Positions 55,159 through 57,870 of a DNA stretch of 64,000 bases are shown piece by piece. Below the pieces are notes generated by a model, which worked only from the letters and a program-made list of their open reading frames with translations, was not told the origin of the DNA and ran no database searches. Position numbers and translations under genes: made by a program. Source of the stretch: an uncultured Planctomycetaceae bacterium (GTDB lineage: Bacteria > Planctomycetota > Planctomycetia > Planctomycetales > Planctomycetaceae); assembly GCA_963815195.1 (NCBI GenBank), contig CAWFGE010000015.1, positions 64,001 through 128,000 of the forward strand, given 5' to 3'. The first letter of the stretch is position 1. Every line of letters begins with the position of its first letter.

Positions 55159-55281
55159 GTAGGCTCCACTGTGCGGACCATTTTTACTTCGTGGCGCAAA
55201 AAACATTGCAACAACGGGAACACGATTCTGCAAGGCTTTTATGCGACTACGAAGTAAAAATGGTCCGCTGAGCGGACCCTA
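55159..55281. repeat. GTAG-type REP doublet (REPIN-like long hairpin)
   Basis: The left arm GTAGGCTCCACTGTGCGGACCATTTTTACTTCGT... pairs with the right arm ...ACGAAGTAAAAATGGTCCGCTGAGCGGACCCTA over about 50 bp. Confidence 0.8.
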
Positions 55282-55660
55282 GTGCGCCTGTAATCGCATC
55301 GAGTCGGCGGGGTGAAAGTCCCTGCCAAAGTTTGGTTTGAACTTTGTAATCTATGGTAACTGCGTCCTTGCGAAAGGGGGTGGAGAGCAACCGGAAGTGA
55401 ATGGCTGGTCCGTAGGATGACGAACTCGATTCGGCCTGTTGTCGTGGCGAGCCTGCTAGGGAAAGGCGAAGCCCAACTGACGTCGTGCGAAACCCTGCCG
55501 AGTGGGTGCAACCCCGTGAAAGCGTGGCTGCGACGGTAAGCCCGAGGTTTGAAAGCAAACCAAGAACTCGGGTCGGAAGATTCGACGGAAAGCAGGGAGA
55601 CCTGAGCGAGGCATGAGACGGCGTTCATGTGCCGGATTCCGATGTGTTCGGAACCGACCG
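55282..55660 (+). mobile_element. Group II intron 5' fragment (domain I and start of domain II); no RT ORF, DV or DVI
   Basis: Starts GTGCG; GGGGTGAAAGTCCC; GTAACTGCGTC...GGTGGAGAGCAACCGGAAG; CCGTAGGATGACGAACT; EBS1 loop GCCT-GCTAGGGAA-AGGC; DI/DII boundary GCAGGGAGACCTG. Confidence 0.85.
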
Positions 55661-56397
55661 GTACCGTTTTCTTTCGGGGGCCGGCTTGTCCAATGATCGA
55701 AGAGGGAACGACACCCGTTGAGATCAAGGAAGGCCAGCGGAGTGTCGGCATGGTCTCTCTTCAGAGACTTCACCTGTGACTGTCGCTGCACTTTCGTTGA
55801 TGGTGCGACTCTCTGAGCTCCATCGGTTTCGATAAAGCGGTCGTAAGCATCAAGGGCTTCATGGAATGTCCCGGCCGCAGGGTTTTCCGGGGCTTGAGCC
55901 TTCATCATCCGCGCCTGCCAACGCGCTTGAACGTCGAACATGACCCGCCCAAGTTCGAGGGCGGCATGCCCCGACTTGTCATCGGGCAGAACTCAATTCA
56001 CGCTTGGGTAATGCCGGGAGGAGATCGTGTGGCTCCAGACCATTGCGAACGGTTCGTGGTCGGGCCATTCGGAGTCGTATGGCCCGATGTCGTAGGCTTC
56101 GCCAGCGGCCTCATTGACGTCGTGGGGCGATGGAATGGGAACGTGGGTGAATCCTTGCTGGATGAGCTTGGCGGCGTGGAGGGCCGCATCGGTCCAGCTT
56201 GCCGGTTGGTCGCCGTAGTGCTGCCGGATGGCGACGCTCTCCCGGTAAACCTGTTGGATGCGATCGCGCCTCCGTTCAGCTTCGGCGTGGTCAGAGCCGA
56301 GATTGAAGCGTTGCTGTTTTCCGTCTTTGCGAACGCCGAATTATGGGCGATAATCGCCTCTCGGATCGGGTTTCAGGGTCGTTCGTCGAGTTGCCAC
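55661..56397 (-). pseudogene. Truncated integrase-like (tyrosine recombinase N-terminal) pseudogene
   Basis: GGAG RBS and GTG start give MATRRTTLKPDPRGDYRP*FGVRKDGKQQRFNLGSDHAEAERR...PSVN*VLPD...TFHEALDAY...DHWTSRP. In-frame stops lie at 56341-56343 and 55993-55995. It is adjacent to the att fragment and lacks a catalytic domain. Confidence 0.6.
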
Positions 56398-56410
56398 CTT
56401 GCACTTCTCC

Positions 56411-56482
56411 GGTCAGATTGCGAAGGGGATTCTACCGTGATTATCTGACCAAGAGGCAGGGCAATCTGACCCATGCCTGACC
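56411..56482. promoter_or_regulatory. Cluster of (GCAAT)CTGACC repeats, candidate arm-type integrase binding sites
   Basis: GGTCAGATTGC (56411) is the reverse complement of GCAATCTGACC (56461). ATCTGACC occurs at 56443 and CTGACC at 56477. Confidence 0.5.
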
Positions 56483-56544: not shown

Positions 56545-56582
56545 AAAAAGAAACCCGACTTGAGGTGATCCTCAAATCGGGT
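56545..56582 (-). terminator. Intrinsic terminator following the tRNA 3' fragment
   Basis: Minus strand reads ACCCGATTTGAGG-ATCA-CCTCAAGTCGGGT-TTCTTTTT. Confidence 0.75.
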
Positions 56583-56598
56583 AAGTGGAGTCAAGAAG

Positions 56599-56620
56599 TG
56601 GAGGATAGGGGACTCGAACC
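56599..56620 (-). other. tRNA 3'-end fragment (probably tRNA-Ala), att core of an integrative element
   Basis: Minus strand GGTTCGAGTCCCCTATCCTCCA gives the T-loop, 3' T-stem, acceptor 3' strand with T70, and discriminator A. The 5' half is absent. Confidence 0.75.
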
Positions 56621-56858
56621 ATCCGGGGAAAACAAGGCAAAAACGCCAATTTCCAAAAAAATGCTGCAAAATCCGATGCAGTTGCGGAGCGTGACGATAA
56701 TCCTCCTATTTCTCGCGCGCCTCTTAAAATCTCCACCTCTGATGCCGCCGAGCAATTCACCACCGTTACCAACGCCTGGCCACATCTCACGGCGGAGATT
56801 CGCTCAGCCATTCTCGCCATCGTCCAATCCGCCGCCCAAGTGGAAAAGGAGCGGACCA

Positions 56859-57870
56859 ATGGCTGAGACTTCCAATTCATCCCGTCGTCCGCTCTCCACC
56901 TGGGAATTCCCGAAACTCGCGACCTCCGTACACAAATATCGAAAGTCGATACCCCGATCGGCAAAAATCCGCGGGCACTACGCAGCCATCCTGGCGTTCG
57001 TTTATCGCAACCGATTCGCAACGGCGAACCAGGTGCAGCGGCGATTCTGCAAGTTCCTTAAATCGGATCGCACCACCCGCCGGCATTTGGCGGAGATGGA
57101 ATTGTTGGGTTTCTTGGATGTCCAGCCCGTGAATTCGATCAGTCCCCTCCTCCCGAAAATCTTCTTCGTCACCGCCAAGGGGCGGCGACATCTGAAGACC
57201 GCATTTGCCAAACAGGGCAAGGCTTGGGAGGAAGCCGCCTTCGATCGGCGGCGAACTGCGGGTCAATCTTTCGTGCACGTTTGGCACGAAATTGCCGCCA
57301 CGGAATTCCTGCTTTCTGTCTGGGAGGCAACTCAATCCCAACCCGTTTGGGAATTAGTGCGCTTTGGAGCGGCGATCGCTAAGAACGCACCCAGCCTTTG
57401 AGATCAACCGGTCTGGGCATCACCGCCTCGTACCGGACGGTCTCATTCTGATCCGTCATCCGAAGGGCATGATTCTCAGCTTCCTGGAAATCGATACGGG
57501 CACGGAAAGTCCTCGTCAATTGGCAAGAAAACTAGAAAGCTATCTGATTTGGGCCGAATCTCCCATTGGCCGAGATTACATCTGCGAAATGTACCGCCAC
57601 GCAGGTGCCGCAAACCCTCAACCAAACTTTCGGCTGCTGTTCGTGATTGCTCCCAAAGTCACCGGGAGCGAAGAAAATCGGCTGGAAACCTTTCATCAAT
57701 TGATAGAAACCGAATCGGCTGCGCTACAACAACGCCTCTGGTACACGCCAGTCGATCATTTGCGAATCACCAACCCGATCAACTTGCTGACGGCACCGAT
57801 TTGGTTTCGTGGTCGAGATGTTCGGGGATTATGCAGCCAGAGTCCCAAACACCCGTTTTTCACGCCGTAG
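56859..57870 (+). CDS. Replication-relaxation (Replic_Relax) family protein, frameshift at ~57363-57367
   Basis: AAGGAG RBS; wHTH-like RFATANQVQRRF...TRRHLAEM...FFVTAKG; HEI; PD-(D/E)xK-like VPDG...FLEIDTGTE...KLESY. Confidence 0.8.

What the first reader, a model, noticed from the sequence alone, without database searches (positions are those of the whole stretch)
55159..55660. Group II intron inserted precisely at the end of a GTAG REP/REPIN hairpin, with EBS1 matching the REP motif
Seen: a ~123-bp hairpin starts GTAG (55159) and its right arm ends ...GGTCCGCTGAGCGGACC-CTA. The expected final C of the CTAC tetranucleotide is replaced by the intron start GTGCG (55282). Inside domain I, a stem-loop GCCT-GCTAGGGAA-AGGC (55451-55467) exposes TAGGG, complementary to the last five exon bases CCCTA (55277-55281). 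Established: class IIC introns recognise a short IBS1 downstream of a DNA stem-loop (terminators, attC sites), and GTAG REPs are substrates of RAYT transposases. Inference: this intron lineage homes to REP palindromes, using an abundant repeat family as a safe multi-copy landing pad. That would link REP/RAYT biology to retrohoming.
Basis: partly seen in the sequence, partly recalled or inferred. Interest (0 to 1): 0.8.

Follow-up and report, generated by a model that had tools for sequence, protein, structure and literature searches.

The report
Dead intron in a REP hairpin
A broken remnant of a mobile self-splicing intron sits exactly in the foot of a repeated DNA hairpin, and its intact relatives, which belong to a little-studied intron lineage, pick such hairpins by five or six matching bases.

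Summary
Observation confirmed; class corrected. 55282-55664 is the 5' remnant (damaged domain I, most of II) of a group II intron inserted at CCCTA|(C) in the right arm of a GTAG REPIN. A different intron of the same lineage occupies the same site elsewhere in the genome; 16 of 25 palindromes of this REP are uninterrupted. It is not class IIC: AGC triad 24/24, no AGGAA bulge, RF02001 below cut-off, IEPs form their own clade with an intron published as 'Unclassified'. Targeting is hairpin plus EBS1, often but not only REPs: 16 of 38 end in the GTAG foot, others use other REP families or single-copy hairpins. A true IIC intron uses the same nucleotide in metagenomes. No mechanistic RAYT link is shown. 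This copy is dead. The scan noted REP-inserted introns before on other DNA (mostly labelled IIC); no paper on it was found in the held library.

The parts
55159..55179 (+). Left REP of the REPIN (GTAG head; two changes from the family consensus)
55159..55281 (.). REPIN: two inverted REPs with a complementary spacer, 123 bp; spacer related to the REPINs at C23:483178-483290 and C21:96050-96158
55262..55281 (+). Right REP = 5' exon: 7-bp GGTCCGC/GCGGACC hairpin, then CTA; final C of the CTAC foot absent
55277..55281 (+). IBS1 (CCCTA); its two 5' bases are the base of the REP stem
55282..55664 (+). 5' remnant of the group II intron: domain I (to about 55604) and most of domain II; domains III-VI and the RT gene are missing
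55334..55339 (+). Probable alpha loop (GGTTTG); complementary partner in relatives changes with it (by inspection of 7 introns)
   Evidence: inference
55457..55461 (+). EBS1 (UAGGG) in the loop of stem 55451-55467
55556..55561 (+). Probable alpha' (CAAACC) at the tip of a stem-loop
   Evidence: inference
55572..55573 (+). Site of a 29-nt internal deletion that removes the 3' strand of stem Id including EBS3
55665..56450 (-). Unrelated pseudogene (stops in frame, no Pfam/NCBIfam match) whose end abuts the intron remnant; part of a decayed element with a tRNA-Ala-type att site at 56596-56620

Best explanation
A decayed copy of an endonuclease-less group II intron from a lineage that is separate from class C (one of the 'unclassified' IEP clusters). 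Intact members are 1.85-2.0 kb. The intron RNP reverse-splices into single-stranded DNA 2-5 nt downstream of a GC-rich hairpin; the site is fixed by EBS1 (5-6 bp with the exon end, reaching into the stem base) and EBS3 (+1), with no EBS2, so that the hairpin takes the place of IBS2 as in IIC. Because REP families offer many copies of 'hairpin + constant foot', variants whose EBS1 matches a foot (UAGGG for GTAGGG REPs, UAGC, UAGU, UGG, UCAU, GAGC for others) spread among these intergenic sites, on the strand opposite to GTAG. Shown: junctions, covariation, hairpin excess, repeat nature of several targets, clade. Inferred: hairpin reading by the RNP, use of the lagging-strand template, selection for harmless sites. 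This copy later lost 29 nt of domain I and everything after domain II.
For: EBS1 positions 1-6 vs exon -1..-6: Watson-Crick in 38, 33, 36, 33, 26, 17 of 38; 0 of 5000 shuffles reach any of these; positions 7-8 at chance. A blind scan of all intron columns against exon -1..-20 ranks positions 1-5 of this loop first (z 6.1-8.2) and shows no second run. EBS3 19 of 22. Hairpin 47 of 54 vs 8.5 expected. Second, 71%-identical intron at the same site in this genome, each closer to introns of other genomes. G094: five copies of one intron at five different hairpin-CCCTA sites, with 12 uninterrupted family copies and 0 control matches; all five on the G-rich strand. G133 intron in the REP next to a RAYT gene. 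GCTC|GCC subgroup sits in another repeat family (8 uninterrupted copies in G283; 106 matches in this genome). Clade and RNA features.
Against: No experiment. Relatives are not independent, so shuffles overstate. 8 of 38 introns pair under 4 bp even with G-U. By folding energy only 31 of 54 targets reach z -2. Only 14 of 54 have a partner arm within 300 nt. Repeat status was tested for few targets, and was negative or weak for C14 and the ACAAGAGG group. Strand bias rests on 5 copies, one near a skew switch, from 400 kb of samples; this genome's skew is too weak to use. No empty allele of this very locus was found.
Confidence: 0.72

Rival explanations
1. It is an ordinary class IIC intron that happens to use a REP as its stem-loop.
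For: No EBS2 signal, hairpin upstream, EBS3, no endonuclease domain, weak RF02001 hit, best solved-structure match is GsI-IIC RT. True IIC introns do use this REP site in metagenomes.
Against: AGC triad 24 of 24, DV 33 nt in 23 of 24, AGGAA 0 of 38, EBS1 5-6 bp; RF02001 23 bits vs 87-140 for class C; IEP clade (20 rows, SH-aLRT 99) apart from class C (17 rows, 99); its Paraburkholderia member is labelled 'Unclassified' in PMC8919778 Table_3.
Confidence: 0.05
2. General hairpin targeting plus survival bias: the intron takes any hairpin followed by its IBS1; REPs dominate only because they supply most such sites and insertions there are tolerated. No adaptation to REPs as such.
For: In this genome about 110 of the 120 CCCTAC sites with a perfect hairpin belong to four GTAGGG REP families; single-copy targets exist (L173 lies in what looks like coding sequence).
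Against: EBS1 sequences repeatedly equal the foot of a REP family, across branches and phyla; a class C intron converged on the same EBS1 and site. This rival shares the chemistry of the best explanation and differs only in how EBS1 came to match.
Confidence: 0.15
3. Sequence homing without hairpin reading: a longer primary-sequence target (EBS1 plus protein contacts) that happens to be palindromic.
For: IBS1 overlaps the stem base, so the stem must partly open; both copies here chose the same REPIN subfamily although the three other GTAGGG families are as large or larger.
Against: The five G094 sites differ in stem sequence yet keep a hairpin (4 of 5 by the strict rule); G199, G017 and G304 copies likewise; no covarying EBS2.
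Confidence: 0.05
4. RAYT-assisted: the REP transposase opens or nicks the REP, or moves REPIN plus intron, and so delivers the site.
For: One intron sits in a RAYT-flanking REP; in this genome a RAYT 5' half is fused to an intron 3' end; remnants here are often cut by other REP repeats.
Against: 1 of 54 junctions near a RAYT; the intron uses the strand opposite to the GTAG guide; non-REP hairpins are used too.
Confidence: 0.03

Closest known systems
Class C (IIC) introns: B.h.I1, E.r. IIC, GsI-IIC; IIC-attC (PMC1702495 passages, PMC10190682 passages, PMC4424553 passages)
   Same: Stem-loop in place of IBS2, EBS1 + EBS3 only, endonuclease-less IEP, many intergenic sites.
   Different: AGC not CGC triad, 33-nt DV, no AGGAA bulge, 5-6-bp EBS1 overlapping the stem base, no U-tract (3 or more T in the last 8 nt in 2 of 38), separate IEP clade.
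'Unclassified' U1/U2 (and g6) IEP types of Miura et al. 2022 (PMC8919778, section 7, passages of section 9, Table_3 searched by term)
   Same: The Paraburkholderia pBN3 intron in my clade is labelled Unclassified there, with the 5' end my profile predicts; the paper reports U1/U2/g6 introns close behind predicted terminators, a class that includes hairpins without U-tail.
   Different: The paper gives no RNA structure, EBS analysis or REP link in what I read; the table does not say which of U1-U3; other 'Unclassified' references fall in two other clades.
Group IIE/IIF introns (PMC3753933, parts 1-2 of 7 and passages)
   Same: IIB-like compact RNA, 5-nt DV loop, alpha' at a stem-loop tip, EBS2 dispensable for splicing.
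   Different: They keep an apparent EBS2-IBS2; the E and F references (one each) do not group with this clade.
REP-targeting insertion sequences, e.g. ISPpu10, IS621, ISPsy8 (PMC1525189 passages)
   Same: Mobile element inserting at a fixed position in REPs.
   Different: DNA transposases; here a retroelement fixes the site by RNA-DNA pairing.
GTAG REPs/REPINs and RAYT (PMC3733652, PMC6006769 passages)
   Same: GTAG head, GC-rich stem, inverted doublets, RAYT genes flanked by sister families in this genome.
   Different: No intact RAYT flanked by this exact REP found here; PMC3733652 has no occurrence of 'intron'.

Membership tests
Group II intron | 5' GUGYG and domain I homologous to complete introns with DV/DVI and RT/maturase | tested here: met
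   (TIGR04416 over cut-off for the C14 IEP)
Group II intron (mobile, intact) | Domains I-VI and IEP present in this copy | tested here: not met
   homology ends at 55664; 29-nt deletion in DI
Class C / IIC | CGC triad in DV | tested here: not met
   AGC in 24 of 24 distinct relatives; the window copy has no DV
Class C / IIC | DV distal stem 2 bp shorter than IIA/IIB | tested here: not met
   33 nt in 23 of 24, read as 5-bp stem + 5-nt loop
Class C / IIC | epsilon' bulge with AGGAA | tested here: not met
   0 of 38
Class C / IIC | EBS1-IBS1 of 3-4 bp | tested here: not met
   covariation to position 6; 25 of 38 pair 5 bp or more with G-U allowed. PMC10190682 shows a fifth, non-contiguous pair in one IIC.
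Class C / IIC | No EBS2; stem-loop at the IBS2 position | tested here: met
Class C / IIC | EBS3-IBS3 | tested here: met
   19 of 22; deleted in the window copy
Class C / IIC | IEP in the class C clade | tested here: not met
   separate clades, both SH-aLRT 99, quick trees only
Miura U1/U2 unclassified IEPs | IEP clusters with a member labelled Unclassified | tested here: met
   L165 in clade
Miura U1/U2 unclassified IEPs | Which of U1, U2, U3; short RT segment relative to class F | not tested
   Table_3 does not split them; the supplementary figures could not be read
Class E/F (IIB-like) | Covarying EBS2-IBS2 and IEP in E or F clade | tested here: not met
   (one reference each)
GTAG REP / REPIN | GTAG head + GC-rich palindrome, multi-copy | tested here: met
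   16 exact, 28 with one mismatch
GTAG REP / REPIN | Inverted doublet | tested here: met
GTAG REP / REPIN | Cognate RAYT flanked by the same REP | tested here: inconclusive
   13 NF047646 matches, 4 over cut-off; intact C12 RAYT is flanked by a sister REP; only a C-terminal RAYT fragment lies between two REPs of this family (C11); genome 94.6% complete
Hairpin-dependent retrohoming | Insertion needs the folded stem | not testable with these tools
   needs a mobility assay

The most novel reading that the evidence does not exclude
REP feet are a distinct target mode of group II introns, besides homing sites, terminators and attC: a non-IIC lineage with IIB-type catalytic domain reads DNA hairpins, and its EBS1 has been retuned many times to whichever REP family its host carries, while class C introns reached the same nucleotide independently. 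The lineage would then be a natural, retargetable 'hairpin + 6 nt' integrator and a parasite of RAYT-made repeats.
Probability: 0.55. Interest if true: 0.75.

Novelty: new variant of a known kind. Interest (0 to 1): 0.6.

Why it matters
Reviews list three target specificities for bacterial group II introns and tie hairpin recognition to class C alone (PMC4424553, PMC10190682 passages). This lineage has the hairpin mode with a non-C RNA and protein, which bears on whether hairpin reading is older than class C, explains why 'unclassified' introns were seen near predicted terminators, and shows natural EBS1 retargeting in a hairpin-reading intron. It also adds retroelements to the mobile DNA that lives on REPs. 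The window copy itself is dead and has no likely function.

Tried and rejected
Rfam at gathering level: nothing; miRNA and snoRNA hits are chance matches to the hairpin. Single-sequence RNA fold of the remnant is no better than shuffles (z -0.07). The loose EBS1-flank scan of genome contigs (120 loci) and the junction scan of metagenomes (120 loci) were mostly chance matches; only profile-confirmed loci were counted; 92 of the 120 metagenome matches were neither intron type or too short to judge. DNA search of plasmids gave only short hits. Duplication of REPIN+intron as the source of the C23 copy: rejected, the introns are 71% identical and each is nearer to foreign introns. Empty allele: the orthologous ROK gene in G017, G018, G019 is followed by other DNA, without REPIN, so no clean pre-insertion site. 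Strand test in this genome: skew too weak. EBS2: no run of covarying columns. The careful tree did not finish; quick trees used; rows L248, L261, L291 carry a misleading 'RF02001hit' label and are lineage members. My early guesses of class E and of g6 were dropped (no g6 reference was available). Simon et al. 2008 is not held.

Full report
Observation. The sequence is as described: a 123-bp REPIN (55159-55281; DNA fold -43.3 kcal/mol, z -8.7) whose right arm ends CCCTA and is followed at once by GTGCG. Rfam gives no hit at gathering level; at E-value level RF02001 aligns to 55364-55531 with 23.1 bits (cut-off 32) and places TAGGG in its EBS1 loop.

The REP. In the genome (G000, 8.87 Mb, 94.6% complete) the GTAG form matches 16 times exactly and 28 times with one mismatch. 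Of 25 palindrome cores, 16 have the CTAC foot, 2 carry an intron start after CTA (the window and C23:483177), 1 is the damaged left arm at C23, 2 read CTAT and 4 have no foot. Three sister GTAGGG families have 39, 38 and 16 exact copies. Of 1168 CCCTAC sites, 120 have a perfect hairpin just upstream, nearly all from these families. NF047646 finds 13 RAYT-like matches, 4 over cut-off; the intact one at C12 is flanked by a sister REP; for this REP only a C-terminal RAYT fragment between two copies was found.

The intron. A profile of the 5' end finds three copies in the genome: window, C23 and C14. C23 has the same junction and EBS1 but is only 71% identical, and each copy is closer to introns of other genomes (82-85%): two insertions. 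C14 has an RT gene cut at its 3' end, exon end GGCTA and loop TAGC, a compensatory change; its hairpin is single-copy. A 3' fragment at C10 is followed by C and fused to the 5' half of a RAYT gene. The window copy aligns with intact relatives to 55664, lacks 29 nt that hold the 3' strand of stem Id and EBS3, and then runs into an unrelated pseudogene. It cannot splice or move.

Relatives. With the C14 protein, 57 of 398 genomes of the order have a match at E 1e-60. I took the 30 loci returned, 20 further places, 120 loci of an EBS1-flank pattern (mostly chance) and 3 plasmid loci; none was chosen by its exon. The profile gave 58 usable 5' junctions after dropping 13 with the 5' end uncovered and one duplicate; 4 more were dropped for an unreadable EBS1 or start, leaving 54 junctions and 38 distinct introns. 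Complete introns are 1843-1998 nt, with an ORF-less one of 766 nt.

Exon recognition. Loop positions 1-6 pair with exon -1..-6 in 38, 33, 36, 33, 26 and 17 of 38 (shuffled means 18.5, 13.6, 20.3, 13.7, 9.4, 8.2; 0 of 5000 shuffles reach them), with three or four pair types at each; positions 7-8 are at chance; 30 of 38 pair 4 bp or more. Kinship inflates such tests, but exon ends change on many branches. A blind scan puts positions 1-5 of this loop first and finds no EBS2-like run. One base in the 3' strand of Id pairs with +1 in 19 of 22 (G-C 17, T-A 1, C-G 1; two more G-T). A hairpin (6 bp or more, one mismatch allowed, ending 2-5 nt before the junction) is present at 47 of 54 junctions against 8.5 expected from sites of G000 with the same last five bases; by folding energy 31 of 54 reach z -2.

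How REP-specific. 16 of 38 exons end in CTA, 9 in another xxA, 13 otherwise; +1 is C in 26 of 37. Partner arms within 300 nt, headed mostly GTAG, GTGG or GTCA, occur for 14 of 54. G094 has five copies of one intron at five different CCCTA hairpins, a family with 12 uninterrupted matches and no control match; all five lie on the G-rich strand (20 samples of 20 kb), as expected for insertion into the lagging-strand template (described for class C in PMC8919778 passages). In G133 the intron is in the REP at the 5' side of a RAYT gene. The GCTC|GCC subgroup uses a non-GTAG repeat (9 matches in G283, one of them the occupied site; 2, 1, 0, 0 in four other genomes). Against exclusivity: the ACAAGAGG-type targets exceed the control in 1 of 5 genomes. 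The exact junction of the window occurs in 4 of 398 genomes: G000 twice, G018 twice (short remnants at other sites), G178 (complete), G390 (chance).

Class. IIC is defined by a CGC triad, a DV stem 2 bp shorter, an AGGAA bulge, a 3-4-bp EBS1, no EBS2 and an upstream stem-loop (PMC1702495 passage). The lineage has AGC in 24 of 24, a 33-nt DV in 23 of 24, AGGAA in 0 of 38. Class C introns score 87-140 bits on RF02001; two complete lineage members give no hit at E 0.1. In a quick ML tree of 50 RT domains the lineage (20 rows, SH-aLRT 99) and class C (17 rows, 99) are separate clades; deeper forks are unresolved, and E, F and CL1A have one reference each, D two (also 72). The Paraburkholderia member is 'Unclassified' in Miura et al. 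Table_3, and that paper reports U1, U2 and g6 introns just behind predicted terminators. The 5-nt DV loop and alpha' at a stem-loop tip resemble IIE/IIF. So it works like a IIC but is not one.

Convergence. 21 of the 120 metagenome matches are a class C intron (CGC-type DV, RF02001 95 bits for L227, 88 for L306; no ORF in the three long loci), with loop TAGGG/TAGG, at 18 distinct upstream sequences, 17 of them this REP palindrome. Many come from similarly numbered datasets and may be one population.

Mechanism. Shown: site, EBS1, EBS3, no EBS2, hairpin excess. Inferred by analogy with the E.r. IIC structure, where RNA and maturase read the shape of the DNA stem (PMC10190682 passages): reverse splicing into folded single-stranded DNA at the fork. 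Inferred: REPs are favoured because they give tens of intergenic sites with a constant foot. A role for RAYT is not supported beyond supplying the repeats.

Literature. Searches gave no paper whose listing links group II introns to REPs; IS elements in REPs are known (PMC1525189 passages), and IIB introns next to attC-like hairpins were noted (PMC7923331 passages). The library lacks most subscription papers; Robart 2007 and Quiroga and Centron 2009 were seen only as citations, Simon 2008 not at all, and the supplementary figures of PMC8919778 could not be read; any of these may mention such targets. PMC3552965 was read in parts 1-3 of 4; PMC7306698, PMC6006769, PMC3733652 and the bioRxiv paper 10.64898/2026.09.22.753630 as passages. 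The scan has earlier notes of REP-inserted introns in other genomes, most filed beside IIC; I did not check their sequences, and they may mix the two lineages.

Verdict. Real, well supported by comparison, untested by experiment; a new variant of hairpin-targeting group II introns; this copy is a remnant. Interest 0.6.

Noticed in passing
L221, L225, L227, L252, L306 and 16 more (metagenome): An ORF-less true class C intron of about 670 nt occupies the same REP nucleotide at 17-18 different sites; its 3' exon is followed by the partner REP.
   Followed up: partly
window 56596-56620, 56565-57870, 55665-56450: Copy of the 3' end of tRNA-Ala(GGC) (25 of 25 to C10:224345-224369), a split Replic_Relax gene and an unassigned pseudogene: a decayed integrative element next to the intron remnant.
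   Followed up: partly
G000 C10:219361-218732 (L007/L205): RAYT 5' half, preceded by a GTAG REP, fused to the 3' end of an intron of this lineage; suggests an intron in a RAYT-flanking REP followed by deletion.
   Followed up: partly
G000 C13:1206659, C8:204803, C12:113221: Three class C intron remnants in the same genome, after non-REP, terminator-like hairpins.
   Followed up: partly
L062, L165-L167 (Burkholderiales): Members insert after a conserved short hairpin ending TTTAGT that is not a GTAG REP; the C8 class C remnant follows a similar motif.
   Followed up: no
G000 C10:1979-4401 (L003): Complete endonuclease-bearing group II intron (634-aa frame) interrupting a gene.
   Followed up: no
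G000 and G018 (L213, L217, C23): In this genus most copies found are 5' remnants cut off next to other repeats, the reverse of the usual 5'-truncation (recalled).
   Followed up: no
G000, genome-wide: At least seven palindromic repeat families, several flanking their own RAYT-like genes; one non-GTAG family has 106 matches.
   Followed up: partly
L195 (Peptoclostridium plasmid): An 'Unclassified' intron of another clade lies between a hairpin and an IS200/IS605 tnpA gene.
   Followed up: no
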